DNA of 64,000 nt from an uncultured delta proteobacterium. GTDB lineage: Bacteria; Myxococcota; Myxococcia; SLRQ01. The stretch is taken from contig CAVSGM010000002.1 of NCBI GenBank assembly GCA_963727485.1, positions 198,854 through 262,853 of the forward strand. The letters run 5' to 3'. Below, one piece after another: positions 997-51,582 of this stretch. Each line of letters begins with the position of its first letter. The stretch's first letter is position 1. The notes under the pieces were generated by a model. The model worked only from the letters and a program-made list of their open reading frames with translations, searched no databases and was not told the origin of the DNA. The translations under genes and the position numbers were made by a program.

Positions 997-3900
997 ATGC
1001 GATTGACCCGTAACTTTGCGCGTCTTGCCCTGGTGGCACTGGCGGCGGGGGCCTTTACGGCCGCCCAGGCCCAGACCACCGGAACGATCGTTGGTACGAT
1101 CCAGGACGCCAGCAACGGCAACCCCATTAGTGGCGCCCTCGTGGTCGCCCAGTCCCCGTCGCTGCAGGGCGAGCAGACCGCCCTGACCAGTGACGAGGGC
1201 ACGTTCCGCATCACCCTGCTGCCTCCTGGGCAGTACACGGTGATCGTCCAGGCCGACGGCTACCGCCCCGGCCAGCGAGGCAACATCACCGTTGACCTCG
1301 ACAAGACCATCCGGGTCACCATCCAGCTCGTGCCGAAGGCCCTCAAGGCCAAGGACGTGGTGGTCAAGGCGACCGCCCCGGTCATCGACCAGGGTTCCAC
1401 CTCCTCCGGCGCGGTGGTCAACGCCGACACCTTCGCGAAGAACGTCCCCACGGGCCGTTCCTTCCAGTCGGTGCTCAACGTGGCCCCCTCCGCCAGCTCC
1501 GACGGGCTGGGCACCACCTTCCGTGGGTCGTCCTCCCCCGAGAACAACTGGATCATCGACGGGGTCACCACCACCGACGTCGCCTACGGCAACGGCGGCA
1601 CCTCGCTGCCGAGCTTCTTCGTGAAGCAGGTCGAGGTGAAGACCGGTGGCTACCAGGCCGAGTACGGTCGCGCGACCGGCGGCGTGGTCAACGTCGTGAC
1701 CCGCTCCGGCGGCAACGCCTTCCACGGCGACGCCTTCGTTCGGTTCTCGTCGGGGGCCCTGAACCTCCCGAGCGCGAACATCCAGACCGGGTCGTCGCCG
1801 ATCAAGCCGACCGCCCAGCAGAGCCTGAACGTCGACTTCGGCTTCGACCTCGGCGGCTACATCATCAAGGACAAGCTCTGGTTCTTCGTGGGCGTGGTGC
1901 CCCAGATGGTCACCGACACCTACACCCGGTACGTGGAGCCGAAGACCACTGACGCCAGTGGCAACGACTTCACCTCGGGCCTGTGGCAGCCGACCTTCAA
2001 GAGCCCCATCGACAGCCTGACCAAGACCTACAACTGGAGCGGCACCACCATCGGCCGCATGGCCAAGCTGACCTGGAACGTCAACGAGAACAACTCGGCC
2101 CAGCTCTCCTACTTCGGGAACCCGGGGACGGACAGCGGCGTCATCAACTCGAGCCTCAACGGCACCGTGGCGGCCCTGTCCGCCAAGGAGGCCGGTGGCA
2201 ACCAGGACCTTAGCGTCCGGTGGACGAGCAAGCTCCTCAACAAGAAGATGCTCGCCGAGGTGTGGTACGGCCTGCACTACGAGACCAGCTCCACGCTGCC
2301 GGACACCAGCCTCCTGCAGTCGGGTGAGGGCTCGAGCGTGGCCACCAACGTCAGCGGTCCCATCGCCACCCAGTACCAGTACGACTACCTCCCGCCCGAG
2401 TTCGCCAACACCCCGGGCTGCGAGCCGACCACCGCCGGTGACAACACCACCTCCCCGTGCGCCAGCCGCTACTACATGGAGGGTCCGTGGTGGTACCAGT
2501 CGGACAACACCATGACCCGTAACGCGGTCGACCTGAAGTTCACCAACTTCGTGAACGCCGCCGGTCACCACGAGATCAAGTACGGTGGCGACTACCAGGT
2601 CAACCGGTTCCTCAACAAGTACGGCTACTACAACAAGTACGCCCAGCGGATCTACAACGGGTATACCCGGACCCAGGCCCTCGGTGACCTGAACGCCGCT
2701 GGCGACTTCGTGCCCAAGGACTTCCGCCGTCCGAACGGCCACACCTACGACACCAGCCTCTTCCTCCAGGACAACTACTCTCCTGTGGACGGGCTCTCGG
2801 TGAACCTCGGCCTCCGTTGGGCCACCCAGCAGGTGTGGGGCACCGGCCAGAAGAAGGCCTCCATCGCCATCAACGACAACCTGTCGCCGCGCGTTGGCGT
2901 GACCTACGACTGGACGGGGACCGGGCGCTCGAAGGTGTCGGCCTACTACGGCCGCTTCTACGAGGCCATCCCGATGGACATCAACTCCCGCGCCTTCGGT
3001 GGCGAGGTCTTCGGCCTCCAGTGGTGGCTGCCTGACGGCACCAACATCACCAACGGCATCTGCTCGCCGGGCAGCTGTGACGCCAGCGGCAACTACTACG
3101 CCCTCGGCGGGTCGGGCACCTACGTGGCCCCGGGCCTCAAGGGCCAGTACATCGACGAGTACAGCGCCGGCGTGCAGTACGAGATCCTCCCGGACCTCGC
3201 CGTGGGCGCCAACCTGGTCCACCGCAACCTCGGCCGCATCATCGAGGACGTCTCGCCTGACAACGGGAACACCTACATCCTCGCCAACCCCGGCGATCAG
3301 GGTGCCCTCGACGCCGGCGTCGCCGACCTCACCAAGCAGCTCCAGGCGGCCGGTGGCACCATGGGCAGCGACGGGACCCCCGACTGCTCGGCGGCCAGCA
3401 ACGCGGCCAGCTGCAACGACATCGCCAACAACCTGGTGCTGGTCCGCGGCGTCAAGGCCTTCCCGGCCCCGACCCGCAACTACGACGCCATCGAGCTGAG
3501 CGTGAAGAAGAACTTCTCGCGCAACTGGTACATGGTGGCGTCCCTGACCTTCTCCAAGACCTACGGCAACTACCCTGGTCTGTTCACCCCGGAGAACGGT
3601 CAGCTCGACCCGAACGTCACCTCCCAGTACGACCTCATCAGCCTCCTGTACAACCGGACCGGGCCTCTGCGCTCCGACCACCCGGTGTACTTCAAGCTCG
3701 ACGGGTACTACCTGTGGAACTTCGGTCTGGTCACCGGCCTCTCGCTCCGCGGGCGCTCCGGCACCCCGATCGACGCCCTCGGTGCCCACCCGGTGTACGG
3801 GCCGAACGAGGCCTTCGTCCTCCCCCGTGGCTCCGGCGGCCGTACCCCTCCGGTCTACGACGTGGACGTGAACGTGGGCTACACGCTGAAGGTGACCGGT

Positions 3901-4167
3901 GACGTGAAGGTGGCGCTCAACGCCAACATCTTCAACCTGTTCAACTTCCAGCAGCTCGTCGGCGTGAGCAGCACCTACACCGACAACAGCGTGATGCCGG
4001 TCGTCGGCGGTTCGCTCTCCGACATCCAGGATTCCAGCGGGAACCCGACCCTCCTGGACGTCAACGGCGACCTCATCACCAAGAGCCCGACCTGGCGCAA
4101 GCCGACGTCGAGCGGCAGTGTGCAGTCGCCGCTCGGGGCCCGGATCGACCTCCGCGTCTCCTTCTAG
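997..4167 (+). CDS. Oar-like TonB-dependent outer-membrane receptor with N-terminal carboxypeptidase-regulatory-like domain
   Basis: ORF 922..4167; internal start MRLTRNFARLALVALAAGAFTAAQAQ (signal peptide) preceded by GGAGG; N-terminal GTIVGTIQD...GTFRI...GQYTV domain; about 1057 aa; terminal residue Phe typical of beta-barrel OMPs. Confidence 0.85.
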   Translation: MRLTRNFARLALVALAAGAFTAAQAQTTGTIVGTIQDASNGNPISGALVVAQSPSLQGEQTALTSDEGTFRITLLPPGQYTVIVQADGYRPGQRGNITVDLDKTIRVTIQLVPKALKAKDVVVKATAPVIDQGSTSSGAVVNADTFAKNVPTGRSFQSVLNVAPSASSDGLGTTFRGSSSPENNWIIDGVTTTDVAYGNGGTSLPSFFVKQVEVKTGGYQAEYGRATGGVVNVVTRSGGNAFHGDAFVRFSSGALNLPSANIQTGSSPIKPTAQQSLNVDFGFDLGGYIIKDKLWFFVGVVPQMVTDTYTRYVEPKTTDASGNDFTSGLWQPTFKSPIDSLTKTYNWSGTTIGRMAKLTWNVNENNSAQLSYFGNPGTDSGVINSSLNGTVAALSAKEAGGNQDLSVRWTSKLLNKKMLAEVWYGLHYETSSTLPDTSLLQSGEGSSVATNVSGPIATQYQYDYLPPEFANTPGCEPTTAGDNTTSPCASRYYMEGPWWYQSDNTMTRNAVDLKFTNFVNAAGHHEIKYGGDYQVNRFLNKYGYYNKYAQRIYNGYTRTQALGDLNAAGDFVPKDFRRPNGHTYDTSLFLQDNYSPVDGLSVNLGLRWATQQVWGTGQKKASIAINDNLSPRVGVTYDWTGTGRSKVSAYYGRFYEAIPMDINSRAFGGEVFGLQWWLPDGTNITNGICSPGSCDASGNYYALGGSGTYVAPGLKGQYIDEYSAGVQYEILPDLAVGANLVHRNLGRIIEDVSPDNGNTYILANPGDQGALDAGVADLTKQLQAAGGTMGSDGTPDCSAASNAASCNDIANNLVLVRGVKAFPAPTRNYDAIELSVKKNFSRNWYMVASLTFSKTYGNYPGLFTPENGQLDPNVTSQYDLISLLYNRTGPLRSDHPVYFKLDGYYLWNFGLVTGLSLRGRSGTPIDALGAHPVYGPNEAFVLPRGSGGRTPPVYDVDVNVGYTLKVTGDVKVALNANIFNLFNFQQLVGVSSTYTDNSVMPVVGGSLSDIQDSSGNPTLLDVNGDLITKSPTWRKPTSSGSVQSPLGARIDLRVSF

Positions 4168-8035: not shown

Positions 8036-8038
8036 AGG

Positions 8039-10545
8039 GTGCCCGGATCGGAGCTCGCGGGCCTCATCGGCCCCCTCCGGTTCGCGAGCCGGAACGACTT
8101 CGCCGGGGTGGAGCGGCTCCGGGGCTTCGAGGCCCTGGTGCGGGCCCGGGTCGAGGCGGCCCGGCGTGCCGGCGAGGCCGACGCGGCCCTCCTCGAGGCG
8201 CTCACCGAGGGGGTGAGGGGCTTCGACGGCAAGGATGCCGCGGCCCGGGAGGCGGTGGTCCGGGAGGTGGTGGCGCTCCTGGGGCGACACCTGGCGCTGC
8301 CGGCGGAGCTGGGCGCGCTGGCAGGGCAGGGGGCCGCGGCGCCCGCGAAGGCGGCGGTGGGGCCGAGGCCAACAGCGCCCGCGAAGCTCGCACCGCCCGC
8401 GTCCGCGTCCCACGCCCCGCACCTGGCCCGGGACGCCAGCCACGCCGGCGACGCCGCCCTCGCCGCCGCCGTCTCCACCCTCCCGGGGGTGGGGCCGAGC
8501 CGGGCCCACGCCTTCGAGGCCCGGGGGGTGGCCACGGTCGCCGACGCCCTCTGGTTCCTCCCGGTCTCCTGGGAGCGCCGGGTCCACGCCGGCCGCATCG
8601 CCGACCTGACCCACGGCACCAAGGCCGTCGTCGCCGGCACCGTGGAGACCGCCGGCGAGCGCTTCCTCGGGGCGCGGCACCGGAAGGTCTTCGAGGCCCT
8701 GGTCACCGACGGCACCGGCCGGGTCCGGGTGCGCTACTACCATCGCGCCGGGTGGGTGGCCCGCCGGCTCACCTCGGGCGCCCAGGTGGTCCTCTCGGGG
8801 CCGGTGCGCAAGGGCTACGGAGGTCTCCTGGAGATGGCGCACCCGGAGCTCCTCGAGCCCGAGGCCGTGGACGGAGACGAGGCCGACGAGGTGATCCCCC
8901 GCTACCCCGAGGTCGAGGGCGTGCCGCCGCGGACGGTGCGCCGGGCGGTCGCCGCGGCGGTGGTCCACGCCGACGCCCTCCCCGATCCCCTGCCCCCGGA
9001 GGTGGTGGCGCACCGGGGCCTGATGACCCCCGGGGCCGCGCTCCGGGGTCTGCACCTGCCCCCGCCCGGGACCCCGGTGGCGGCGCTCAACGAGGGGCGC
9101 ACCGACGCCCACCATCGCCTGGTCTACGAGGAGTTCTTCTTCCTCCAGCTCGGCCTGGCCCTGAAGGCCCGGGGGGTGAAGCTCGCACGGGGCATCGCCT
9201 TCCCGGTGGGGCCCGCGGAGGTGGAGGCGGCCCTGGAGGCGCTGCCCTGGCCTCCGACCGGGGCCCAGGGTCGGGTGGTCGAGGAGATCGCCGCCGACAT
9301 GGCCCGGGCCCAGCCCATGAACCGCCTCCTCCAGGGCGACGTGGGCTCGGGGAAGACCGCCGTCGCCGCGGTGGCGCTCTCGCTCGCCGTGGGCGCCGGG
9401 TGGCAGGGGGCGGTGATGGCGCCCACCGAGCTCCTCGCCGAGCAGCACGCCGCCACCCTCACCGGGCTCCTGGCGCCTAGGGGATCCGGGTGGTCCGCCT
9501 CTCCGGGAGCCTCGGGGCCGCCGCGCGGCGCCAGGTCCTCGCCGCCATCGCCGCTGGGGAGGCCCAGGTCGTCGTCGGGACCCACGCCCTGATCCAGCAG
9601 GGCGTCGAGTTCCACCGCCTGGGCCTGGTGGTGGTCGACGAGCAGCACCGCTTCGGGGTGCGCCAGCGCATGGAGCTGATGGAGAAGGGGACCCGCCCGG
9701 ACGTCCTGGTGATGACCGCGACCCCCATCCCCCGGACCCTCGCCATGACCGCCTACGGCGACCTGGATCTCTCGGTCCTCGACGAGATGCCCCCCGGGAG
9801 GACGCCGGTCGCCACCAAGCTCTACCGGGCCCAGGCGCGAGAGAAGGTCTACGACGTCATCCGCCGGGAGGTCGGCAAGGGCCACCAAGCCTACGTGGTC
9901 TACCCCTTGGTGGAGGTGAGCGAGAACCTCGAGGACGTCCAGGCCGCCACCGAGGCGGTGGCCCACCTCCAGGCCGAGGTGTTCCCGGAGCTGACCCTCG
10001 GTCTCCTCCACGGGAAGATGCCGCCGGCGGAGAAGGACCAGGTCATGGGCGCGTTCGCCGCCGGGCGCGTCGACGTCCTGGTGGCCACCACGGTCATCGA
10101 GGTGGGGATCGACGTCCCCAACGCCTCGGTGATGGTCGTCGAGCACGCCGAGCGCTTCGGCCTCTCCCAGCTCCACCAGCTCCGGGGCCGGGTGGGGCGG
10201 GGCGCCGCCAGGAGCTACTGCCTCCTGGTCGCCGAGGAGGTGAAGGGTGAGCGGGTGCGGGAGCGCCTCCGGGTCATGGAGGCGACCACCGACGGCTTCC
10301 GCATCGCCGAGGAGGACCTGCGCATCCGGGGCCCCGGGGAGATCCTGGGGACGCGCCAGAGCGGGCACCCGGACCTCCTCTTCGGGAACCTGGCCCGGGA
10401 CCGGGCGCTCCTCGCCCAGGCCCGGGGCGACGCCTTCGCCCTCATCGAGGCCGACCCCCACCTCCAGGCCCCGGGACACCACCGGGCGCGGATCGAGGTG
10501 GTGGCGCGGTGGGGCGGGCGGATCTCGTTGGGGCAGGTGGGCTGA
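8039..10545 (+). CDS. recG: ATP-dependent DNA helicase RecG, split by a frame change near 9475-9495
   Basis: N-terminal part in ORF 8039..9592 (Walker A GDVGSGKT, ...LAEQHAATLTGLLAP); C-terminal part in ORF 9490..10545 (VVGTHALIQ...DEQHRFGV...TATPIPRTL...LHQLRGRVGRG). The downstream frame has an in-frame TAG at the junction. Confidence 0.85.
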
Positions 10546-12281: not shown

Positions 12282-13118
12282 TCGGCGCCGGGTCGGGATT
12301 CCGCTTCGGGAACCTGGGGGTAGGGCGACAGCCTCGCGTGTCACGTGATGGGTGTTCGGTATGTCCGGTCGTCACCGGACGCCGGGTGTGGCGTGCGGCG
12401 ACGCCGGAGGACGCTGCGGGGGCACCGGCGCCGGCGCGGGCGATCATCGTGCCGGCGGACGCCCCTTCCCCGATCCCCGGCCGACGGGATCGCGGCCGAC
12501 GGACCGGACGCCGGGTCTCCGCCGTGGACCCCTTCGGGCACCACGTGAGCGACGCCGCACAAGCCACGATTTCGTCGTGGAAATCACCCTCGGGGCGAGG
12601 GGGTGTCGAGGGGGCCGCCACGCGCTGTCGGCGACGGGACGGGTGCCCCCCCTGTCGCAGCGGACGGGCGGCGCCACGGTGGCGTCACCCGTGGGGGCCC
12701 ACAACGCCGGGGTGCATCTCGACCCACATTTCAAAGCACGAGAACGTGCTCCTCGCCGTCGTGACGCGGCGCACCCGATCACTTCGCGTCACCGGTTCGA
12801 CACCGCCCGCACCGCGTCTGCGCGCTGTCGTGCCCATTTTTCGCGGGCTGAAATGCGGTCGCTTGACGGGTCGGATCCGAGCGTGCTTGTGTGGCCGACG
12901 CTTTGAGGTCACGAGGGGGCAATCGTCGGATGCAGGATGGGGCAACGTCGCCTTTGGCGGCGTCCGGCGGGGGCCACCGAAGGGCCGAGGGGCAGCGGTC
13001 GTGCGGGGGGCGTGCGACACGCTAGGGCTGTGCCGCAACGTGCAGGTGCGGTCCCCGTGATTCCTGATCCTGTTCCCGTTCCAGTTCCTGTTGCAGCGGA
13101 AGTTCCCGGAGGTCGGTC

Positions 13119-16100
13119 ATGCGCATCACCCGTCGGTTCACGGTCGAGGGGGGCTCGCCCTACGACGCGTTCGAGTTCGTCGCGCGTACCAGCGAGATCC
13201 GCGATCCAGGCGGCAAGGTCGTCTTCCGGGCCGAGGACGTCCTGGTCCCCGAGCACTGGTCGCAGGTGGCCACCGACATCCTGGCCCAGAAGTACCTGCG
13301 CAAGGCCGGCGTCCCCGCGGTGGTGAAGCCCGTCGCCGAGAAGGGCGTCCCCAGGTGGCTCCAGCGCCGGGCGCCCGATGCCAAGGCCCTCGAGGCCCTC
13401 CCCGAGGCCGAGCGCCTCGGCCCCGAGCGCGACGCCCGGCAGGCCTTCGACCGCCTCGCCGGCACCTGGACCTACTGGGGCCACAAGCACGGGTACTTCG
13501 ACGGCGAGGACGACGCCCAGGCCTTCTACGACGAGCTGCGGTGGATGCTGGCGCGGCAGATGTGCGCCCCCAACTCGCCCCAGTGGTTCAACACCGGCCT
13601 CCACTGGGCCTACGGCATCGACGGGCCGCCCCAGGGCCACTGGTACGCCGACCCCAAGACCGGCGAGCTCAAGCGCTCCGAGAGCGCCTACGAGCACCCC
13701 CAGCCCCACGCCTGCTTCATCCAGTCCGTCGGCGACGACCTGGTGAGCGAGGGGGGCATCATGGACCTGTGGACCCGGGAGGCGCGCCTGTTCAAGTACG
13801 GCTCCGGGACCGGGACCAACTTCTCGGCGCTCCGGGGCGAGGGCGAGCCGCTCTCCGGCGGCGGGCGCAGCAGCGGCCTGATGAGCTTCCTCAAGATCGG
13901 CGACCGCGCCGCCGGGGCCATCAAGAGCGGCGGCACCACCCGCCGGGCCGCCAAGATGGTCTGCCTCGACCTCGACCACCCGGACATCGAGCAGTTCGTG
14001 GACTGGAAGGTCAACGAGGAGCAGAAGGTCGCCGCCCTGGTGGCCGGCTCCAAGGCCTGCTCGGTGAACCTCACCGCGGTCATGGCCGCCTGCCACACCG
14101 ACACCGTCGCCGGCGACGACCGCTTCGATCCCGAGGCCAACGCGGTCCTCAAGGACGCCGTCCGCGCCGCCCGGAAGGCGTACGTCCCCGCCGCCTACAT
14201 CCAGCGCTGCATCCAGCTCGCCCGCCAGGGCTTCAGCGGGGTGGAGTTCCCGGTCTACGACACCGACTGGCAGTCCGAGGCCTACGTCACCGTCGCCGGC
14301 CAGAACTCCAACAACTCGGTGCGCATCCCCGACGCCTTCATGAAGGCGGTCCTCGAGGACGGCAAGTGGGTCCTCACCCGGCGCACCGACGGCAAGGCGG
14401 CCAAGACCCTCGAGGCGCGCGACCTCTGGGAGCGCATCGCCTCGGCGGCCTGGAGCTGCGCCGACCCGGGCCTCCAGTTCGACTCCACCATCAACGCCTG
14501 GCACACCTGCCGCCCCGACGGGCGGATCAAGGCGTCGAACCCCTGCTCCGAGTACATGTTCCTCGACGACACGGCCTGCAACCTGGCGTCGGTGAACCTC
14601 ATGACCCTGGTCGACGCCGAGGGCAACTTCGACGTCGAGGGGTTCCGCCACGCCATCGAGGTGTGGACGGTGGTCCTCGAGGTCAGCGTCCTCATGGCCC
14701 AGTACCCGAGCCGGGCCATCGCCGAGCGCTCCTACTGGTACCGGACCCTGGGGCTCGGCTACGCCAACCTCGGCGCGGTGCTCATGCGCCTCGGGCTCCC
14801 CTACGACAGCGACGCCGGCCGGGCCTTCTGCGGGGCGGTGAGCGCCGTCCTCACCGGCACCGCCTACGCCACCAGCGCCCGGATGGCCGCCGAGCTCGGG
14901 GCCTTCCCCCGCTACGACGACAACGCCGAGGCGATGCTCCGGGTCATCCGCAACCACCGGCGCGCCGCCTACGCCGCCGCCGACGCCGACTACGAGGACC
15001 TCGAGGTTCCGCCGGTGGGCCTCGACGCCCGCCGCGCCCCCAAGGCGCTCCTCTCCGCCGCGCGCAACGCCTGGGACGAGGCCCTCGAGCTCGGCGAGGC
15101 CCACGGCTTCCGCAACGCCCAGGCCACCGTGATCGCCCCCACCGGGACCATCGGCCTGGTGATGGACTGCGACACCACCGGCATCGAGCCCGACTTCGCC
15201 CTGGTGAAGTTCAAGAAGCTCGCCGGCGGCGGGTACTTCAAGATCATCAACCAGTCGGTGCCCCCGGCCCTCACGCGCCTCGGGTACTCCGACGCCCAGG
15301 TCGCCGACATCGTCGCCTACGTGAAGGGCACCGGCACCCTGAAGGGCGCCCCGGGGGTGAGCCAGGCCGCCCTCAAGGAGAAGGGCTTCACCGACGCCGA
15401 CCTCGCCCGGGTCGACCAGGCCCTGGCGTCGGCCTTCGACATCACCTTCGCCTTCAACCGCTGGACCCTCGGCGACGCGCTGGTCACCGGCCGCCTCGGC
15501 GTCCCCGAGGACGAGCTGGCCCGGCCCGACTTCGACCTCCTCGCCTGGCTCGGCTTCGAGGCCGAGGACGTCCGGGCCGCCTCGGACCACGCCTGTGGGA
15601 CCATGACCATCGAGGGGGCGCCGCACCTCGACGAGGCGCACCTGCCCATCTTCGACTGCGCCAACCGGTGCGGCCGCTACGGCAAGCGCTTCATCGCCGC
15701 CGACGCGCACATCAAGATGATGTCCGTGGCCCAGCCGTTCATCTCCGGCGCCATCAGCAAGACCATCAACATGCCCGCCGAGGCCAGCGTCGAGGACGTG
15801 AAGCACGGCTACCTGCTGTCCTGGCGCCTGGGGCTCAAGGCCATCGCCCTCTACCGCGACGGCTCCAAGCTCTCCCAGCCCCTCTCGGCCACCTGGGCCC
15901 TCGAGGACGTGGACGACGAGGCGCTCCCGGTGGCGGCCGTGGCCTCGCCCGAGGAGGCCGCCGAGCGCATCGTCCTACGCTACCTCGCCCGGCGCCACCG
16001 CCTCCCACACCGGCGCGGCGGCTACACCCAGAAGGCCATCGTGGGCGCCCACAAGGTCTACCTGCGCACCGGCGAGTACCAGGACGGGCAGCTCGGCGAG

Positions 16101-16739
16101 GTGTTCATCGACATGCACAAGGAGGGCGCCGCCTTCCGGAGCCTGATGAACTCCTTCGCCATCGCCGTGAGCCTCGGCCTCCAGTACGGCGTGCCCCTCG
16201 AGGAGTTCGTCGAGGCCTTCGTCTTCAGCCGCTTCGAGCCCAACGGCATCGTCGAGGGCAACGACCGGATCAAGATGGCCACCAGCGTCATCGACTACAT
16301 CTTCCGGGAGCTGGCGGTGACCTACCTCGGGCGCAACGACCTGGCCCACGTCCAGGAGGAGGACCTGCGCCACGACGCCATCCACCGCGCCGAGGCCGAG
16401 CCCGAATACGAGGAGGAGGTCGTCCTCGAGGCGGGCGGGGCCCCGATCCCCATCCGCCACGCCCGGGCCTCCGAGGTCGTCGCCAGCGCGGTGGCCGGCG
16501 GGGCCACCCAGGTGGCGGCCGCGGGGAGCCAGGTGGCGGCCGGGGGGAGCCAGGTCCGGGCCGTCTCCGGGGGCCGGCGCGTGGCACCTCGGGGCGGCCA
16601 GCGCCTGGACGCCATCGCCGTGGCCCGGGCCCAGGGCTACGAAGGCGAGCCCTGCTCCGAGTGTGGCCAGATGACCATGGTCCGCAACGGCACCTGCCTC
16701 AAGTGCGTGAGCTGCGGCTCGACCTCGGGCTGCAGCTGA
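13119..16739 (+). CDS. nrdJ: Vitamin B12-dependent (class II) ribonucleotide reductase
   Basis: 1206-aa ORF; [21 protein letters not shown]...[21 protein letters not shown]...; C-terminal CSECGQ...CLKCVSCG zinc-finger tail; RBS GGAGG. Confidence 0.9.
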
Positions 16740-34688: not shown

Positions 34689-34725
34689 TCCGGCCGTCGG
34701 CCCGGCGCCGCCGCCGGCGCGGCGG

Positions 34726-35025
34726 TCACGCCTCGCCGGACCCCTCGGGCCCGCCCTCGCCGTAGCCGTAGGGGGCCTCGGGGAGCGCCTCGCCCTCGGC
34801 GAGACCGAGGAAGACCTTCATCTGGACGTCGAGCTTCTCCGCGTCGGCGGCGCTCGCCAGGTTGAGCCGGAACTCGTTGATCACCTTGGTCTGCATCACC
34901 TGCCAGGCCCGCCAGCAGGAAAGGCACACGTGGTCCTGGATCTCCTGACCCGAGGGCCCGGGCCAGGGGGGCGCCGGCAGGGCCTCCCGCGCCTCGCCAC
35001 ATCTCGCACACTTCACCGTCGCCAT
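34726..35025 (-). CDS. YggX-like Fe(2+)-trafficking/oxidative-damage protection protein
   Basis: MATVKCARCGEAREALP...HVCLSCWRAWQVMQTKVINEFRLNLASAADAEKLDVQMKVFL, resembling the YggX W..W...QT.LINE..LN...FL pattern; GGAGG RBS. Confidence 0.6.
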   Translation of the reverse strand: MATVKCARCGEAREALPAPPWPGPSGQEIQDHVCLSCWRAWQVMQTKVINEFRLNLASAADAEKLDVQMKVFLGLAEGEALPEAPYGYGEGGPEGSGEA

Positions 35026-35040
35026 GGGTTCCTCCGAGGA

Positions 35041-35057
35041 CTGCACTGACATTCAGG
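35041..35057. promoter_or_regulatory. Candidate LexA box (CTGCACTGACATTCAGG) in the divergent yggX-like/uvrD-like promoter region
   Basis: Matches the delta-proteobacterial LexA motif CTRHAMRYBYGTTCAGS at 13/17 and shares CTG-N9-TTCAGG with the site upstream of lexA in this window. Confidence 0.35.
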
Positions 35058-35084
35058 GGTGCGTGCTATATCACTGTGTTGCTC

Positions 35085-37196
35085 ATGGCCAGCCGTCGCT
35101 ACACCCTGAAGTCGCACGTCCCCGCCGTCAACTGGCGCATCGACTACGCCCAGGATCTCAACGCCGAGCAGCTCCGGGTCGTCGAGGCCGGCAACGGCCC
35201 GCTCCTGGTCATCGCCGGGGCGGGCTCGGGGAAGACCCGGACCCTCACCTACCGGGTGGCAAGGCTCCTCGAGTCGGGGGTCCGGCCCGAGGAGGTCCTT
35301 CTCCTCACGTTCACCAACCGCGCCGCCCGGGAGATGATCGGCCGGGTGAACGAGCTCGGGGGCGAGGCCCTCGGCAACGACCTGCGCCGCCTCTGGGGCG
35401 GAACCTTCCACCACGTGGCGGCGCTCACCCTCCGGGAGCACGCCTCGGTGCTCGGCTACGGCGAGCGCTTCGGCATCCTCGACCGCGAGGACTCGAGCGA
35501 GCTGATGAAGGCCTGCATCGCCGAGCTGGGCCTGGCGAGCCTCCCCCGGCGCTTCCCCAAGCCCGACGTGGTGGTCAGCCTGGTCTCCAGCGCGGTGAAC
35601 ACCCAGACCCCCATCGCCGACGTGGTCGCCGACCGGACGCCCCAGTTCGTGGTCCTCACCGAGGAGATCCTCCAGGCCGCCGCCCGGTACATGGAGCGCA
35701 AGGTCGCCCTCAACGTCATGGACTTCGACGACCTCCTCCTCAACTGGAAGGTGCTCCTCGCCGAGCACCCGGCGGTCCGCGCCGCCCAGGCCGGCCGCTT
35801 CCGCCACGTCCTGGTCGACGAGTACCAGGACACCAACCAGCTCCAGGGCGACCTCGTCGACCTGGTGAGCTCGGTCCACGGCAACCTCATGGTCGTCGGC
35901 GACGACGCCCAGAGCATCTACTCGTTCCGGGGGGCGCACTTCGCCAACATCTTCGAGTTCCCCGAGCGCCATGCCGGGGCCCAGGTCTTCCACCTCACCG
36001 CCAACTACCGGTCGACCCCCCAGATCCTCGAGCTCGCCAACGCCTCCATCGCCAACAACGACAAGCAGTTCGAGAAGACCCTCACCGCGGTCCGCGACGC
36101 CGGGGTGCTCCCGGCGCTGGTGCCCACCCGGGACGTGTTCCAGCAGGCCGAGTTCGTCTGCCAGCGCATCCTCGAGGTCCGCGACGAGGGCATCCCCCTC
36201 AAGGACGTGGCGGTCCTCTACCGGGCCCACCACCACTCCATGGAGCTGCAGGTCGAGCTCTCGCGCCGGGGCATCCCCTTCGTGGTGCGCTCGGGGCTGC
36301 GGTTCTTCGAGCAGGCCCACATCAAGGACGTGCTGGCCCACCTGCGCCTCACGGCCAACCCCCGCGACGAGCTGGCCTTCAAGCGCACCATCCGCCTGGT
36401 GCGGGGCATCGGCAGCGCCATCGCCGAGCGCCTCTGGACCTGGATGCGCGCCCGGTCCGAGGGCGCCGGCGACCCGGTGTCGGCGATCCTTCGCCGCGAG
36501 GCGCTCGAGGAGGTCCCGCCGCGGGCCCGGGCCAGCGTGGGGCGGTACCAGGGGCTCCTCCGCGAGCTGGGCAAGCCGTCCCTCCGGGACACCCCCGGCG
36601 AGATGATCCGCCTGGTGCTCGAGAGCGGCTACGACGACTACCTGAAGGACACCTTCCTCAACGGTGAGTCGCGCCTCGAGGACCTGGAGCAGCTCGCCAC
36701 CTTCGCCGACTCGTACACCGACCTCGACACCTTCCTCGGCGAGGTCAGCCTCCTCACCGAGCTCGAGGGCGAGGAGGTCGTCGACGGTGTCGAGCCCGAC
36801 GAGCACGTGACCCTCTCCACCATCCACAAGGCCAAGGGCCTCGAGTGGCGGGCGGTGTTCCTGGTGTGGCTCGCCGACGGGCGCTTCCCGGTCCCGGCGG
36901 CCTACCGCACCGCCGACGGCCTCGAGGAGGAGCGGCGCCTCTTCTACGTCGCCTGCACCCGGGCCAAGGACGAGCTCTACCTCTGCCACCCGATCATGCA
37001 CACCCAGCGGGACAGCGAGCGCATCGTGATGAAGGCCTCGCCCTTCGTCGAGGAGCTCCCCGAGGGGGACGACGCCCCGTATGAGCGGTGGAGCCTGGAG
37101 GTCGAGGCGGTGGATCCCGGGCCGGCGCTGGGGCCCGGGGCGGGGATCGCCGGCGCCCTCGGCGAGGGGGGCGAGGGCCCGGATTCCGCTGATTGA
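35085..37196 (+). CDS. UvrD/PcrA/Rep-family ATP-dependent DNA helicase
   Basis: MASRRYTLKSHVPAVNW...LNAEQLRVVEAGNGPLLVIAGAGSGKTRTLTYRVA...VLVDEYQDTN...YSFRGA... Confidence 0.85.
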   Translation: MASRRYTLKSHVPAVNWRIDYAQDLNAEQLRVVEAGNGPLLVIAGAGSGKTRTLTYRVARLLESGVRPEEVLLLTFTNRAAREMIGRVNELGGEALGNDLRRLWGGTFHHVAALTLREHASVLGYGERFGILDREDSSELMKACIAELGLASLPRRFPKPDVVVSLVSSAVNTQTPIADVVADRTPQFVVLTEEILQAAARYMERKVALNVMDFDDLLLNWKVLLAEHPAVRAAQAGRFRHVLVDEYQDTNQLQGDLVDLVSSVHGNLMVVGDDAQSIYSFRGAHFANIFEFPERHAGAQVFHLTANYRSTPQILELANASIANNDKQFEKTLTAVRDAGVLPALVPTRDVFQQAEFVCQRILEVRDEGIPLKDVAVLYRAHHHSMELQVELSRRGIPFVVRSGLRFFEQAHIKDVLAHLRLTANPRDELAFKRTIRLVRGIGSAIAERLWTWMRARSEGAGDPVSAILRREALEEVPPRARASVGRYQGLLRELGKPSLRDTPGEMIRLVLESGYDDYLKDTFLNGESRLEDLEQLATFADSYTDLDTFLGEVSLLTELEGEEVVDGVEPDEHVTLSTIHKAKGLEWRAVFLVWLADGRFPVPAAYRTADGLEEERRLFYVACTRAKDELYLCHPIMHTQRDSERIVMKASPFVEELPEGDDAPYERWSLEVEAVDPGPALGPGAGIAGALGEGGEGPDSAD

Positions 37197-37219
37197 CCGG
37201 GCCCTTGGGCGCCGATACG

Positions 37220-37967
37220 ATGCGGCCCACAGTGCCGGGCCGCGAAGCATCAGGGGGGGGCGTCGGGTCCCCCACGGGGGGTGGAAACGTCGTGCCGCCG
37301 CGGTGGCGCGGGGCCTGGCCACGGCCCTGGCGTGCCTGTCCCTCGGCGCCTGCGCCACGCCCACCTCGGGCCTCGCCGCCCCCGGCGCCGACACCGCCGG
37401 GAGCGTGACGCCCCCGGGGCGCGCCTTCCCCACCGAGGTCACCTTTCCCGACGGCTACGGCCGCGCCTGGGACGCCACGGTGGCGGTCCTCGCCTCCCGG
37501 GGCTTCCCCCTGCGCTCGGTGGCCCGGGCGTCGGGGATCGTCCAGACCGGGTGGCGGGTCACCGCCGGGCGCTACGAGACCCGGGTCGGCGGGGTCCTCT
37601 ACTACGGCCGGAAGGTCGAGCGGCTCACGGTCCTGGTCCGGCCCCTCTCCCACGGGACCGCGGTCTCGGTGCAGGCCCAGGCGGCCCTGGTGAGCCCCGA
37701 GTGGAGCGCCGCCGGCACCCCGGCGCCGGGGCAGGCCGCCGACGTCCCCGACGACACCATCACCGACTACGGGATCCTCCATGACCTGGGGCGGGTGCTC
37801 CGCCGGCCCCTGGCCCGGGCGCCCGACGCCGGCTACCCGGGGCCCCTGGCCGGCGGCGGGGTGTTCACGGCGCCGGTGAGGGCCGCGGCGCCGGTGAAGG
37901 CCGCGCCGCCGCCCCAGGCCCCCACCTCGCCGCCGCCCCCGCCGCCCGCCACCGCCGGAGGGACCCC

Positions 37968-37971
<4 letters not shown>
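37220..37971 (+). CDS. Lipoprotein (hypothetical), probable frame change in a poly-G run near 37250-37290
   Basis: Met in ORF 37193 frame (MRPTVPG...) followed by lipoprotein signal ...KRRAAAVARGLATALACLSLGAC and mature domain in ORF 37081..37971 frame; start uncertain. Confidence 0.45.
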
Positions 37972-39569
<1,598 letters not shown>

Positions 39570-39890: not shown

Positions 39891-39965
39891 GCGCGCGTAA
39901 CTCAGCGGTAGAGTGCCACCTTCACACGGTGGAAGTCGCTGGTTCGAACCCAGCCGCGCGTACCA
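39891..39965 (+). tRNA. tRNA-Val (anticodon CAC)
   Basis: GCGCGCGTAACTCAGCGGTAGAGTGCCACCTTCACACGGTGGAAGTCGCTGGTTCGAACCCAGCCGCGCGTACCA: 7-bp acceptor stem, D-stem ACTC/GAGT, anticodon stem CCACC/GGTGG with loop TTCACAC, T-arm GCTGG-TTCGAAC-CCAGC, encoded CCA. Confidence 0.9.
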
Positions 39966-40029
39966 TCTTCCCGCGCCCGCTCCCCCAGGTTGGGGGGCGG
40001 GCGCGGGCTTCTCGACGCCGCGCCTACTG

Positions 40030-41568
40030 ATGGCTGCTTCCGAGCGCAGGCCCCGGGCCCTGGTCGTCGACGACGACGACGGGATGCGTGGGAACATGGC
40101 CCACATCCTCGAGGCCGACGGCTTCGAGACGGTGGGCGCGGTCGACGGGATGGACGCCCTGGGGCGGCTCGAGCGCGCCAGCTTCGACATCGCCCTCCTC
40201 GACATCCAGATGCCGGGCATCGACGGCCTGGAGACGCTGAAGCGGATCCGGGAGAAGGCGCCGGAGGTCGAGGTGGTGATGGTCACGGTGCTCAAGGAGA
40301 TCCCCAAGGTCGTCGAGGCGATGAAGCTCGGGGCCTTCGACTTCCTCACCAAGGACTTCCGGGCCAGCGAGCTGCAGCTCAAGGCCCAGCAGGCCCTGAC
40401 CCACAGGCGCACCGCCCGGCAGATGGCCTACCTCCGCGACGAGGTGGAGCGACAGGCCCCCGGCGAGATGATCATGGGCGACGGGCCGGCGATGCGCGAG
40501 GTGTCGACCCTGGTCGACAAGGTGGCGCCGCTCCCCGCCACGGTGCTGGTCCTCGGCGAGAGCGGGACGGGCAAGGAGCTGCTGGCCAGGCGTCTCCACC
40601 GCATCTGGTCCGGGGGCGACAAGAAGAAGCCCTTCGTCACGGTGAACCTGGCGGCGATGCCCGCCAGCCTCATCGAGTCCCAGCTCTTCGGGCACGAGAA
40701 GGGGGCGTTCACCGGGGCCACCGAGCAGCGCCTGGGGAAGTTCGAGCTCGCCGACGGAGGCACGCTCTTCCTCGACGAGATTGGCGAGCTGCGCCTCGAT
40801 CTCCAGGCGAAGCTCCTGCGCGCCATCCAGGAGCGCGAGGTGGAGCGCCTCGGGGGCAAGCGTCCGGTGCCGGTGGATGTCCGGCTCATCACCGCCACCA
40901 ACGTCGACCTCAAGGAGGCGGTCCACGCCGGTCGCTTCCGTGAAGACCTCTACTACCGCATCAACGTCATCCCCATCCGGCTGCCGCCCCTGCGCGAGCG
41001 CATCGAGGACGTGCCGGTGCTGGCGCGGCACTTCGCCCGGAAGGCGGGGCAGCGGTTCAACCGGCCAGTGCCCGAGCTCACCGACACGGCGCTCGAGGTG
41101 CTGATGCGCTACCCCTGGCCCGGGAACGTCCGGGAGCTGGAGAACCGCATCGCCGGGCTGGTGGCGGTGCAGGACCGGCCGGTCATCGACGACGTGGACC
41201 TGCCCATCGAGTTCAGCTACCCGCGCTTCTACGACGAGGCCCGGCGCAAGAAGGCGGACGGGCTGGCGGTGGCGCTCACGGCCTTCGAGCGGTCGTTCAT
41301 CGCCATGACCCTGGAGAAGACGGGGTGGCACCGGAAGCAGGCGGCGGCGGAGCTGGGCATCGGCTACTCGACGCTGAAGAAGAAGCTCAAGAAGCTGGGT
41401 GCTCGCGCCGCCCGGGGGGCGCCACGCCGACGGGGACCCGGACGGCGACGACGACGAGGGGTGAGCCCTCACCGGCGCCGGAGGGACGTGGCGCGCGTGG
41501 CCGGCGTCGTCAGGCGGCGTCGGGGGACGACTCGGCCACCGGGGGACTGGCGCGCCGGGGCAGGGTGA
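40030..41568 (+). CDS. NtrC-family sigma-54-dependent response regulator (receiver, AAA+, HTH) with Arg-rich C-terminal extension
   Basis: MAASERRPRALVVDDDDG...DIALLDIQMPGIDG (receiver) ...GESGTGKELLA...GAFTGA...ELADGGTLFLDEIGEL...AAELGIGYSTLKKKLKKLG (HTH); the last about 55 aa are low-complexity and overlap the convergent kinase gene, so the true stop may be earlier. Confidence 0.85.
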   Translation: MAASERRPRALVVDDDDGMRGNMAHILEADGFETVGAVDGMDALGRLERASFDIALLDIQMPGIDGLETLKRIREKAPEVEVVMVTVLKEIPKVVEAMKLGAFDFLTKDFRASELQLKAQQALTHRRTARQMAYLRDEVERQAPGEMIMGDGPAMREVSTLVDKVAPLPATVLVLGESGTGKELLARRLHRIWSGGDKKKPFVTVNLAAMPASLIESQLFGHEKGAFTGATEQRLGKFELADGGTLFLDEIGELRLDLQAKLLRAIQEREVERLGGKRPVPVDVRLITATNVDLKEAVHAGRFREDLYYRINVIPIRLPPLRERIEDVPVLARHFARKAGQRFNRPVPELTDTALEVLMRYPWPGNVRELENRIAGLVAVQDRPVIDDVDLPIEFSYPRFYDEARRKKADGLAVALTAFERSFIAMTLEKTGWHRKQAAAELGIGYSTLKKKLKKLGARAARGAPRRRGPGRRRRRGVSPHRRRRDVARVAGVVRRRRGTTRPPGDWRAGAG

Positions 41569-49702: not shown

Positions 49703-50389
49703 CTAGTGGACCCGGCGGTAGACGCCGACCACCACGCCCAGGATCTGGGTGTCCCGGAAGTCCTGCTGGTGGACGTAGATGGGCTGCATCGCCGCGTTCG
49801 CCGGCTGGAAGCGGATGCGGTCGCCCTCGGGGAAGTAGCGCTTCACCGTGGCGTCGCCGTCGATCATGGCGACCACGATGTCGCCGGCGTCGGCGGTGAG
49901 CTGCTTCTTCACGAAGATGTAGTCGCCGTCGAGGATGCCGTCGTCGATCATGGACTCACCGCTGACCCGGAGGCCGAAGACCTTCTTGGTGGTCCCCCCG
50001 AGGAAGAAGCTGTCCACGTGCACCGTGTCGGTGACGTTCTCCTCGGCGAGGATCGGGCTCCCGGCGGCGACCCGCCCGAGGACCGGGATCGCGACCAGGT
50101 CGCCCTCGGGGAAGATCGCCGGCACCGCCACGTCGACCGCGGTGGGGTGGGGCGCCTCGCCGAGGGCGCGCAGGGCCGGGGCGGTGAGGGCGAGAGCCCG
50201 GGACTTCTTGTCGCCACGCTCGATGTACCCCTTGCGCTCGAGGGCCTTGAGGTGGTCGTTGACGCCGTTGGTGGACCTGATGCCGAAGGCGGTGCCAATC
50301 TCGCGGATGGTCGGGGGGTAGCCGCTCCCGTTGATGCTCTGGTGGATGAAGCCGAGGATGTCCCGCTGCCGCTGGGTGAGCTCCTGCAT
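49703..50389 (-). CDS. lexA: LexA repressor
   Basis: [58 protein letters not shown]...[24 protein letters not shown]...[17 protein letters not shown] (S24 peptidase Ser/Lys region). Confidence 0.9.
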
Positions 50390-50400
50390 GTCCGCCCTCT

Positions 50401-50433
50401 CCTGAAAACAGGTTCAGGCACAAGATACTGAAC
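50401..50433. promoter_or_regulatory. Candidate LexA operator(s) upstream of lexA (CCTGAACCTGTTTTCAGG on the lexA strand, plus GTTCAG-N10-CTGAAC)
   Basis: CTGAACCTGTTTTCAGG matches the delta-type LexA motif CTRHAMRYBYGTTCAGS at 15/17; within 30 nt of the lexA start codon. Confidence 0.45.
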
Positions 50434-50502
50434 GGGCGCCCAGCGCGTCAAGAAATCCGGCGCCGCCTTCCGCCCCGGACGCCCCTGGGGTACACAGGGC
50501 CC

Positions 50503-51582
50503 ATGCGACCGGCGACCCGCCACCTGGGCCACGGGGTCAGGGCCACTCTCCGCCACCTGCCCCTGGTGGCCCTCCAGGCCTCCGTGGACCTCACCGCGAG
50601 CCTGGCGGCCCTGCTCCCGGCGGTGGTCGCCGCGGTCCTGGTGGTGCGCCACGCCGTCACGCTGGTCTCGGCCCTGCCCCCGACCCGCAACCCCCTGGCC
50701 CTCGCCGCGGCGGAGCTGCTGGGCTACCTCCTCTCGGCGCGCTTCCTGATGCCGGTGGTGGGCCTCGCCGCGGCCGGGGCGCTGCTGGTGGCGATGATGC
50801 GGGTCCTCTATCTCACCGGCGCCCTGGGCCTCCTCGCCGGCGACCTCCGCGCGGGTGGCCGGGCGCCGGCCGGCGGCTTCATGGACGCGGTGGTCGCCCG
50901 GTTCCCGGCGGCCCTCGCCGTGGTCGCCCTCATGGGGGTCGCGGGCCTCGCGGTGGCGGGCCTGGTCGCGGGCCTGGTGGGCGCCGCCGGCGCCGTGTTC
51001 GCCGCCGGGCCCTCGGTGGCGAGCGCCGCGGGCCTCGCCCTCGCCGGGAGCCTGACGGTGGTCCTGCTCGCGATCTTCGAGGCCGTCCGGCACCTCGCCC
51101 TGGTCCGCACCGTGGCCCTCGGCGAGGGCCCGGGTGTGGCCACCTACGAGGCCGGGGCCCTGGTCCTCCGGCGTCCCGGGACCCTCCTCGCCCTGGGGGT
51201 CCTGCTCCTTGGCGTCGAGCTGGCCGTGGCGGTGATCTTCGCCAGCGCCACCGGGATGCAGGGCCTCCTCCCCGCCGCCGCCGCGGCCACCGGATGGGCC
51301 GTCGGCGCCCGGGTCGTAGGCGAGGTCACGGCCACCGTGGCCCTCGCCGTGGTCGGCGTGGTCGCCTGGGGCGCCCTGGTGTCCCTGGCCCTCGATGACG
51401 CCGGGGCGCTCCCGCCGGACCCCGAGCCCGCGCCCCGGTCGACCCCGCCCGCACCCGCGCCGGCGGTCCCGGCGCGGCGGGTGTCCCTCGCCCGGCCCGT
51501 GTCGGAGGTGTGGCCGCCGGCGCCGGCGCCTCAGGCCGACGCCCCGGGCGACGACGCCTCAGACGACGACCCCTCGGCGTAG
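50503..51582 (+). CDS. Polytopic membrane protein (hypothetical), Ala/Leu/Val-rich
   Basis: Multiple hydrophobic segments (LVAGLVGAAGAVFAAG, LTVVLLAIFEAV, VALAVVGVVAWGALVSLAL); low-complexity, so the exact frame/start is uncertain. Confidence 0.45.
   Translation: MRPATRHLGHGVRATLRHLPLVALQASVDLTASLAALLPAVVAAVLVVRHAVTLVSALPPTRNPLALAAAELLGYLLSARFLMPVVGLAAAGALLVAMMRVLYLTGALGLLAGDLRAGGRAPAGGFMDAVVARFPAALAVVALMGVAGLAVAGLVAGLVGAAGAVFAAGPSVASAAGLALAGSLTVVLLAIFEAVRHLALVRTVALGEGPGVATYEAGALVLRRPGTLLALGVLLLGVELAVAVIFASATGMQGLLPAAAAATGWAVGARVVGEVTATVALAVVGVVAWGALVSLALDDAGALPPDPEPAPRSTPPAPAPAVPARRVSLARPVSEVWPPAPAPQADAPGDDASDDDPSA

What the first reader, a model, noticed from the sequence alone, without database searches (positions are those of the whole stretch)
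35041..35057. Putative LexA box in the divergent promoter of the UvrD-like helicase
CTGCACTGACATTCAGG resembles the delta-proteobacterial LexA operator and the stronger site upstream of lexA in this window. It lies between the yggX-like gene and the helicase start, and uvrD-type helicases are common SOS regulon members (established knowledge).
Basis: partly seen in the sequence, partly recalled or inferred. Interest (0 to 1): 0.4.

Follow-up and report, generated by a model that had tools for sequence, protein, structure and literature searches.

The report
Weak LexA-like box before helicase gene
A 17-base sequence between a small iron-handling gene and a DNA-repair-type helicase gene looks like a slightly defective binding site for the DNA-damage repressor LexA; it is plausible but unproven, and it is an ordinary kind of regulatory site.

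Summary
CTGCACTGACATTCAGG (35041-35057) lies in the 59-nt gap between a yggX-like gene (34726-35025, -) and a UvrD/PcrA-family helicase gene (35085-37196, +). The window also holds lexA (49703-50389, -) with two operators.

For a LexA operator:
- Weight matrices built from lexA promoters of relatives, with no window site included, rank the candidate directly after lexA's own boxes among 128,000 positions. It scores above lexA box 1.
- The chance of such a score in this gap is about 0.001-0.006.
- Helicase orthologues in 8 of 14 other loci examined (seven Myxococcota, one unclassified MAG) carry strong LexA-type boxes in their promoters.
- The site overlaps the likely -35 region of the helicase promoter and the start of the yggX leader.

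Against:
- Position 11 is A, whereas G or T is found in every trusted site.
- Neither half-site is perfect.
- The six closest orthologous promoters (64-91% protein identity) have no box. The site sits in a 32-nt stretch absent from the nearest relative.
- About one hit this good is expected by chance in the whole window.

Verdict: probably a weak, lineage-specific LexA operator (about 0.5). It is a new member of a known kind and of low interest.

The parts
35041..35057 (+). Candidate LexA-like box CTGCAC-TGAC-ATTCAG-G. The CTG-N10-CAG dyad is intact. Position 11 (35051) is A where trusted sites have G.
35064..35072 (+). Inferred extended -10 of the helicase promoter, TG-C-TATATC. It is the only promoter element shared with close relatives (L082 TTCTATACC, L083 TGGATATAC, L084 TGCTATGCA, L169 TGCTACGGT). 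The ATG follows 9-12 nt later in all of them, so the mRNA is leaderless or nearly so.
   Evidence: reading of the sequences; inference
35065..35073 (-). Inferred extended -10 of the divergent yggX promoter, TG-A-TATAGC on the minus strand. It overlaps the helicase -10 within the near-palindrome GTGCTATATCAC (35063-35074).
   Evidence: sequence; inference
35030..35035 (-). Shine-Dalgarno GGAGGA of yggX, 4 nt before the ATG at 35025.
35026..35057 (.). About 32 nt present in the window but absent from the closest relative (L082, 91% helicase identity). It forms the yggX leader and contains the Shine-Dalgarno and the candidate box.
   Evidence: (alignment A1)
34726..35025 (-). yggX-like Fe(2+)-trafficking / oxidative-damage-protection gene.
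35085..37196 (+). SF1 UvrD/PcrA/Rep-family helicase gene. It scores below the equivalog cutoffs of PcrA, UvrD and Rep. It is followed by an unknown ORF and an Hsp70/DnaK-like gene (37968-39569).
49703..50389 (-). lexA, the cognate repressor.
50402..50418 (+). lexA operator box 2, CTGAAAACAGGTTCAGG (read on the minus strand: CTGAACCTGTTTTCAGG), just upstream of the lexA Shine-Dalgarno. It is conserved in L083.
50427..50443 (-). lexA operator box 1, CTGGGCGCCCGTTCAGT, between -35 TTGACG (50446-50451) and -10 TATCTT (50422-50427). The same layout is seen in L083, L084 and L087.

Best explanation
The 17-mer is a weak, lineage-specific LexA operator in the shared control region of the divergent yggX and helicase genes. 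Inferred mechanism: a LexA dimer binds the CTG-N10-CAG dyad at 35041-35057. The helicase has a conserved extended -10 (TGCTATATC, 35064-35072) and a leaderless or near-leaderless mRNA, so the site covers about -39 to -23 of its promoter, that is, the -35 region. For yggX, read from an overlapping extended -10 on the other strand, the site covers about +2 to +18 of a 33-nt leader. This is the same geometry as box 2 in front of lexA itself. Bound LexA would dampen both promoters, and RecA-stimulated self-cleavage after DNA damage would relieve them. Because of the A at position 11 and the lack of a perfect half-site, affinity is expected to be lower than at lexA's own boxes, so repression would be partial and relieved early. 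Shown: the sequence, its position, its matrix rank, the presence of lexA with operators of the same type, and LexA-type boxes at orthologous helicase promoters. Inferred: promoter elements, transcription start sites, binding and regulation.
For: (1) A broad matrix was built from 46 unique best sites of 76 lexA promoters, with the window's own site left out. The candidate scores 12.7 bits and ranks 3rd of about 128,000 window positions, behind only lexA box 2, and it beats lexA box 1 (10.6). The rank stays at 3-4 under different pseudocounts and sequence weights.
(2) A matrix of 18 Myxococcota-type sites, none from the window, puts lexA box 2, the candidate (16.6), lexA box 1 (15.3) and box 2 on the other strand as the top four. 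The next position scores 10.3. E for the window is 0.11-0.15.
(3) E for the 59-nt gap is 0.0005-0.004. Best scores in 74 helicase promoters from other phyla run from -5 to 10.7, and in the six box-less close relatives from -7 to 4.4.
(4) Orthologous helicase promoters carry strong boxes: L001-L005 (13.4-25 bits, between -35 and -10; the helicase-Hsp70 gene order is kept in L001, L003 and L004), L030 (19.7), and Anaeromyxobacter L169 and L086 (14.3 and 16.9).
(5) With G at position 11 the site would score 19.7 bits, the median of trusted sites.
(6) Its half-sites have (1,1) mismatches to CTGWAC. That is the same total as the most common lexA-promoter class (0,2) and the same pattern as the L005 helicase site.
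(7) lexA box 2 of this lineage, conserved in L083, itself uses a half-site without G at position 11 (TTTCAG).
(8) Even if the TCAGG shared with L083 and L172 is taken as inherited, the remaining 12 nt reach the needed score with p of 0.002-0.006. The homologous 17-mers of L083 and L172 score -9.7 and -9.4.
Against: A at position 11 (35051) occurs in 0 of 46 trusted lexA-promoter sites and 0 of 8 helicase-promoter sites; position 11 is G in 97% and T in 3%. The published M. xanthus consensus CTRHAMRYBYGTTCAGS requires G there, and the candidate has 4 mismatches to it in either orientation. In M. xanthus gel shifts a site with 2 mismatches (recN) was not bound and another (pafBC) was bound only weakly (PMC9705874). 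Of 52 lexA-promoter sites, 49 have one perfect half-site; the candidate has none. Its score is below the 10th percentile of training sites (15.3). No box is found at the helicase promoter of the six nearest orthologues: L082 91%, L083 75%, L084/85 69%, L087 68%, L172 and L168 66%, L170 64%. The whole segment is missing in L082. Over the whole window about one such hit is expected by chance. A comparable hit with the broad matrix (12.2 bits, 869-885) lies in the promoter of an unrelated TonB-dependent receptor gene. The Myxococcota-type matrix was hand-picked and includes two sites with the same CTGCAC left half, which favours the candidate.
Confidence: 0.5

Rival explanations
1. Chance or inherited resemblance. 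The 17-mer is simply part of the yggX 5' leader and of the upstream region of the helicase promoter, and LexA does not bind it to any useful degree. The right half (TCAGG) is an inherited promoter-proximal element also present in relatives that have no box. The left half matches by chance.
For: E for the whole window is about 1 with the broad matrix. A hit of similar score sits in front of an unrelated TonB-dependent receptor gene. A is at position 11, which is G or T in every trusted site, and there is no perfect half-site. TCAG(A)GGGGT followed by 5-6 nt and then the -10 is shared with L083 and L172, which have no LexA-like left half. The six nearest orthologous promoters lack a box. M. xanthus LexA failed to bind a site with 2 mismatches (PMC9705874).
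Against: The probability for this specific promoter is 0.0005-0.006, even when conditioned on the inherited TCAGG. The candidate scores above lexA box 1 with both matrices. The orthologous operon is a recurrent carrier of LexA-type boxes (8 of 14 other loci examined). There is a clear score gap to every other non-lexA position with the Myxococcota-type matrix.
Confidence: 0.4
2. The site binds a different factor. One option is a redox- or iron-responsive regulator controlling yggX, an oxidative-damage-protection and Fe-trafficking gene. Another is that it is part of a -35-like element (CTGACA, 35046-35051) of the helicase promoter rather than a repressor site.
For: CTGACA matches TTGACA at 5 of 6 positions but lies only 15 nt from the -10. 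yggX-type genes are stress-regulated in other bacteria (general knowledge, not tested here). TCAGGGGT is conserved next to the -10 in L083 and L172.
Against: The simple sigma-70 scan found no promoter in the region. No other dyad or repeat of 6 nt or more covers the site. No recognisable alternative motif was found. The left half is not conserved in any relative. The dyad spacing and bases fit the LexA motif specifically.
Confidence: 0.1

Closest known systems
Myxococcus xanthus-type LexA operator (SOS box CTRHAMRYBYGTTCAGS; Campoy et al. 2003, as cited in PMC9705874 and PMC12288472)
   Same: It has the same length and the same CTG-N10-CAG dyad. The left half CTGCAC fits CTRHAM, and TTCAGG fits positions 12-17. 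It lies in a promoter region. A cognate lexA in the same window carries two boxes of this type.
   Different: There are four mismatches to the IUPAC consensus, at positions 7, 8, 9 and 11. The three spacer mismatches are common in the empirical site collection, but A at position 11 is not seen in any trusted site. Binding is untested.
LexA control of uvrD in E. coli and pcrA in Bacillus subtilis (SF1 repair helicases as SOS regulon members; established knowledge)
   Same: An SF1 UvrD/PcrA-family helicase gene has a LexA-type dyad in its promoter.
   Different: The helicase here scores below the equivalog cutoffs of UvrD, PcrA and Rep. It belongs to a Myxococcota-specific gene string with an Hsp70-like gene. 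The operator motif is the Myxococcus type, not CTGT-N8-ACAG or GAAC-N4-GTTC.
LexA-type boxes at the orthologous helicase promoters of seven other Myxococcota loci and one unclassified MAG
   Same: It is the same orthologous gene. The helicase-Hsp70 gene order is kept in L001, L003, L004, L086 and L169. The motif is the same and the placement is promoter-proximal.
   Different: Those sites keep GTTC at positions 11-14 of the right half and score 13.4-25 bits. In L001-L005 they sit between -35 and -10, and in Anaeromyxobacter over the start codon. The window's site is upstream of the -10, in a segment of independent origin, so it is not their positional homologue.

Membership tests
Myxococcus-type LexA operator (SOS box) | Match to the published consensus CTRHAMRYBYGTTCAGS | tested here: not met
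   The site matches at 13 of 17 positions in either orientation. It is not recovered at 3 or fewer mismatches, whereas both lexA boxes are.
Myxococcus-type LexA operator (SOS box) | Weight-matrix score in the range of trusted operators and above the genomic background | tested here: inconclusive
   It is above background: rank 2-4 of 128,000 positions and higher than lexA box 1. It is also below the 10th percentile of lexA-promoter training sites, and E for the whole window is 0.1-5 depending on the matrix.
Myxococcus-type LexA operator (SOS box) | Inverted CTG ... CAG core triplets 10 nt apart, with A5/C6 and T12/T13 | tested here: met
   The site reads CTGcAC-N4-aTTCAG. Only the candidate and lexA box 2 match CTGNAC-N5-TTCAG in the window.
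Myxococcus-type LexA operator (SOS box) | G at position 11 and at least one perfect half-site (CTGWAC / GTWCAG) | tested here: not met
   Position 35051 is A. A is seen there in 0 of 46 lexA-promoter sites and 0 of 8 helicase-promoter sites. Of 52 lexA-promoter sites, 49 have a perfect half; the candidate is (1,1).
Myxococcus-type LexA operator (SOS box) | A cognate LexA encoded in the genome that autoregulates through the same motif | tested here: met
   lexA passes the TIGR00498 cutoff. It has two boxes in its promoter, conserved in L083, L084 and L087.
Myxococcus-type LexA operator (SOS box) | Placement overlapping the RNA polymerase binding elements of the regulated promoter | tested here: inconclusive
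   The site ends 9 nt upstream of the conserved extended -10 of the helicase and lies at the predicted start of the yggX leader. Promoter elements and start sites are inferred only, and the consensus promoter scan found nothing.
Myxococcus-type LexA operator (SOS box) | Conservation at orthologous promoters (phylogenetic footprint) | tested here: inconclusive
   The box is absent from the six closest orthologous promoters (64-91% identity). It is present, at non-homologous positions, in eight more distant ones.
Myxococcus-type LexA operator (SOS box) | Specific binding by LexA, and derepression on DNA damage or loss of LexA | not testable with these tools
   This needs a gel shift or footprint with the window's LexA, and expression data. 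The organism is known only from a metagenome contig (ERZ25039500 contig_8292).

The most novel reading that the evidence does not exclude
The helicase / unknown ORF / Hsp70-like gene string is an unrecognised module in Myxococcota that is repeatedly placed under LexA control, and its operators are gained and lost quickly. On this reading the window shows the birth of a new operator inside a newly evolved 32-nt leader of yggX. One LexA dimer would then tie both a repair-type helicase and an iron-trafficking, oxidative-damage-protection protein to the SOS response.
Probability: 0.25. Interest if true: 0.4.

Novelty: new member of a known kind. Interest (0 to 1): 0.22.

Why it matters
If real, the site adds one more gene pair to the LexA regulon of an uncultured Myxococcota lineage. 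It would also give a clean example of operator turnover: the same helicase operon carries LexA-type boxes at three different promoter positions in different lineages and none in others. It would suggest that an Hsp70-like partner of an SF1 helicase, and in this lineage YggX, take part in the damage response. None of this changes how LexA regulation is understood. It is a routine regulatory-site prediction whose main value lies in annotation and in choosing targets for binding assays.

Tried and rejected
- Counting mismatches to the IUPAC consensus cannot separate the site from background: 13 hits at 3 or fewer mismatches are expected by chance, and the candidate has 4. I replaced this with matrices built from real lexA promoters.
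- The single genome-contig scan with the helicase returned mostly other phyla at about 50% identity. These were useful only as an empirical null, plus L001-L005 and L030.
- Look-ups of the window's LexA and YggX proteins returned only the source contig, so no near-identical strain was available. The P0009 look-up returned no DNA. The Anaeromyxobacter Fw109-5 look-up gave only 92 nt upstream.
- The sigma-70 consensus scan found no promoter in 34700-35300. Promoter elements are therefore inferred from conservation only.
- A search for inverted repeats found nothing covering the site beyond the short LexA-type dyad. Rfam found no RNA family there.
- I looked for LexA boxes upstream of the HEAT-repeat genes that precede the helicase in L087 and L168, in case of a possible operon promoter. 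None scored 12 bits or more.
- I could not establish whether M. xanthus MXAN_3833, an 'ATP-dependent DNA helicase' that is 2.2 log2-fold up in the lexA deletion mutant (PMC12288472), is the orthologue. Campoy 2005 (PMC1196036) is not held.
- I rejected the alternative yggX start at ATG 35052, which lies inside the site. The ATG at 35025 has a perfect GGAGGA Shine-Dalgarno, matches the Pfam profile from residue 3, and is the start called in the source assembly.

Full report
**Observation.** The sequence CTGCACTGACATTCAGG is at 35041-35057 (+) and is unique in the window. The window is about 72% G+C and comes from a 399-kb metagenome contig, ERZ25039500 contig_8292. To the left of the site is a yggX-like gene (34726-35025, minus strand; Pfam Iron_traffic 4.3e-18; NCBIfam 'oxidative damage protection protein'). 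Its ATG at 35025 is preceded by GGAGGA at 35030-35035. To the right is an SF1 helicase (ATG 35085 to 37196; UvrD-helicase 6e-68, UvrD_C 8e-57) that scores below the equivalog cutoffs of PcrA, UvrD and Rep. lexA is at 49703-50389 (-) and passes the TIGR00498 cutoff. Its upstream region holds two boxes. Box 1, CTGGGCGCCCGTTCAGT (50427-50443, -), lies between -35 TTGACG and -10 TATCTT. Box 2, CTGAAAACAGGTTCAGG (50402-50418, +; CTGAACCTGTTTTCAGG on the other strand), lies just before the Shine-Dalgarno.

**What the LexA motif looks like in this lineage.** I collected 76 non-redundant lexA promoters: 80 metagenome loci from a LexA scan plus syntenic relatives of the window. I then iterated a 17-column matrix on them.
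- The motif is the Myxococcus-type imperfect palindrome. The right half GTTCAG is almost invariant: position 11 is G in 97% and T in 3%, never A; T12, T13 and C14 are each at 98% or more.
- The left half is looser, [C/G]T[A/G][T/A]AC.
- The window's syntenic relatives L083, L084 and L087 have box 1 in the same place (CTGTCCTTTCGTTCAGT, CTAATCACCCGTTCAGT, CTAGCCGGACGTTCAGT). L083 also has box 2 (CTGAAATTGGGTTCAGT).
- Of 52 lexA-promoter sites, 49 have one perfect half-site CTGWAC plus a second half with 1-3 mismatches.

**How the candidate scores.**
- Broad matrix, with the window's own site excluded: the candidate scores 12.7 bits. lexA box 2 scores 13.0 on one strand and 16.4 on the other, and lexA box 1 scores 10.6. 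The candidate ranks 3rd of about 128,000 positions, and 3rd-4th under other pseudocounts and sequence weights. The only loss is -5.6 bits for A at position 11 (35051). With G there the site would score 19.7, the median of trusted sites. The spacer bases that violate the published IUPAC string are common in the empirical collection.
- Myxococcota-type matrix (18 hand-picked sites, none from the window): the four best positions of the window are lexA box 2, the candidate (16.6), lexA box 1 (15.3) and box 2 on the other strand. The next position scores 10.3, and E for the window is 0.11-0.15. This matrix favours the candidate somewhat, because two training sites share its CTGCAC left half.
- Statistics: with the broad matrix about one hit of this strength is expected per window (E 0.7-5), and about 0.19 in the roughly 8.6 kb of non-coding DNA. 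A similar hit (12.2 bits, 869-885) sits in the promoter of a TonB-dependent receptor gene. For the 59-nt helicase/yggX gap alone, E is 0.0005-0.004.
- Empirical nulls: best scores in 74 helicase promoters of other phyla range from -5 to 10.7. About 8 hits outside lexA and helicase promoters occur in 742 kb of related high-G+C DNA.

**Orthologous promoters.** The helicase has homologues at 91, 75, 69, 68, 66, 66 and 64% identity (P0001-P0006, P0022) and in Anaeromyxobacter at 63%. The gene order helicase / unknown ORF / Hsp70-like is kept throughout Myxococcota, and yggX is divergent in L082, L083, L084/85 and L172.
- None of the six nearest promoters has a LexA-like site (best scores -7 to 4.4).
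- In L082 the gap is only 24 nt. Alignment A1 shows that the window carries about 32 extra nucleotides, namely the yggX leader with its Shine-Dalgarno and the candidate.
- What is shared is an extended -10 (TGCTATATC in the window) followed 9-12 nt later by the helicase ATG, with no Shine-Dalgarno. This points to a leaderless or near-leaderless mRNA.
- Also shared, with L083 and L172, is TCAG(A)GGGGT just upstream of that -10. The TCAGG end of the candidate is therefore probably inherited. The homologous 17-mers of L083 and L172 score -9.7 and -9.4. The chance that 12 random upstream bases lift an inherited TCAGG to the candidate's score is 0.002-0.006.
- More distant orthologues do carry strong boxes. 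Five Myxococcales MAGs have them between -35 and -10: CTGTACGTCCGTTCACT, CTGTACGGATGTTCACT, GTATACGGGCGTTCAGT, CTGTACGGATGTTCAAG and CTGGACAGATGTTCGGG (13.4-25 bits; the Hsp70-like gene follows in L001, L003 and L004). L030, a MAG labelled only 'bacterium', has CTGAAAATCTGTTCAGG (19.7 bits). Two Anaeromyxobacter species have CGTGACATGCGTTCAGG and CGGGACATACGTTCAGG over the start codon.
- This helicase operon therefore often carries LexA-type boxes, but the boxes sit at non-homologous positions, and the window's immediate clade seems to have lost them.

**Mechanism (inferred).** The -10 region GTGCTATATCAC (35063-35074) is palindromic at 10 of 12 positions. It reads TGnTATATC on the plus strand and TGnTATAGC on the minus strand, which suggests back-to-back overlapping promoters. 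With starts near 35079 (+) and near 35058 (-), the candidate covers -39 to -23 of the helicase promoter and +2 to +18 of the yggX transcript. The latter copies the position of box 2 in front of lexA. One bound dimer could therefore hinder both promoters. The site has both core triplets intact, and its total of half-site mismatches is typical (1+1, against the usual 0+2). The L005 helicase site is also 1+1, and lexA box 2 of this lineage uses a TTTCAG half without G at position 11. I therefore consider weak binding more likely than none.

**Counter-evidence.**
- A at position 11 is unprecedented in the site collection.
- By dyad symmetry it corresponds to T at position 6, which is also rare (3%).
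- In M. xanthus, gel shifts failed for a recN site with two mismatches and were weak for pafBC (PMC9705874).
- The nearest relatives lack the site.
- The window-level expectation is about one chance hit.

**Weighing and comparison with the known.** The prior is low to moderate, because regaining a box in a clade that lacks it is uncommon. The likelihood ratio from the promoter-specific score is about 20-40. Together these give roughly even odds, and I set 0.5 for a functional weak operator, 0.4 for non-functional resemblance and 0.1 for another role.
- The site works like, and would be, a Myxococcus-type SOS box in front of an SF1 helicase, analogous to LexA control of uvrD in E. coli and pcrA in B. 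subtilis (established knowledge).
- It fails the strict consensus test and the test for G at position 11 or a perfect half-site. It passes the tests for the dyad, the cognate repressor and a score above background. Its placement is suggestive but rests on inferred promoters, and binding is untestable here.
- It is at most a new member of a known kind, and interest is low (0.22).
- The more interesting by-product is the recurrent presence of LexA-type boxes in front of the Myxococcota-specific helicase/Hsp70-like gene string.
- One possible experimental link remains open. MXAN_3833, an 'ATP-dependent DNA helicase', is more abundant only in the M. xanthus lexA deletion mutant (PMC12288472). I could not verify whether it is the orthologue.

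Noticed in passing
window 861-891: A LexA-like hit, ATATCCACCCGTTCTGA (869-885, minus strand; 12.2 bits with the broad matrix), fills the spacer of a near-consensus promoter TTGACA-N17-TATACG. It lies upstream of a TonB-dependent-receptor-like gene (922-4167). It drops out with the Myxococcota-type matrix, so it is probably chance.
   Followed up: partly
window 35085-39569; L001, L003, L004, L083-L087, L168-L170, L172: The gene string helicase / Pfam-less ORF (about 210-300 aa, where present) / Hsp70 (DnaK-like, about 535 aa) is kept in nearly all Myxococcota loci examined. It is found in none of more than 50 helicase loci from other phyla. LexA-type boxes recur in front of it, so it may be an unrecognised damage-response module.
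   Followed up: partly
window 50390-51582; L083 13400-14617; L084 19171-20100; L087 18644-19702: A gene of 350-400 aa with no Pfam match, which looks hydrophobic and alanine/leucine-rich, is divergent from lexA in every syntenic relative. It shares the short operator-bearing gap (113 nt in the window), so it may be co-repressed by LexA.
   Followed up: no
window 35063-35074: GTGCTATATCAC is palindromic at 10 of 12 positions. It reads as an extended -10 on both strands (TGnTATATC and TGnTATAGC), which suggests overlapping back-to-back promoters. In the closest relative, L082, both divergent genes start 7-9 nt from this element and would be leaderless.
   Followed up: partly
window 39891-39965: A tRNA-Val(CAC) gene (Rfam 66 bits; ARAGORN) overlaps the 5' end of the mechanical ORF call 39913-41568 for a sigma-54 response regulator. 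The true start of that gene must lie further downstream.
   Followed up: no
window 8036-10545 and 13068-16739: A RecG-like helicase gene and a class II (B12-dependent) ribonucleotide reductase gene are in the window. Both types of gene are damage-related in other bacteria. Neither has a LexA-like site scoring above 5 bits upstream.
   Followed up: partly
L088 14833-14849: A near-perfect palindromic box, CTGAACTGATGTTCAGC (19.7 bits), lies about 4 kb from lexA in a metagenome relative. The neighbouring gene was not identified, so it may mark another regulon member.
   Followed up: no
L171 (the window's source contig around yggX): The source assembly's gene calls replace the 5' part of the helicase with an antisense 301-aa ORF and list only a 239-aa UvrD_C fragment. 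Yet the 703-aa frame is uninterrupted and aligns end to end with P0001 at 91% identity. This is an annotation artefact, not a pseudogene.
   Followed up: partly
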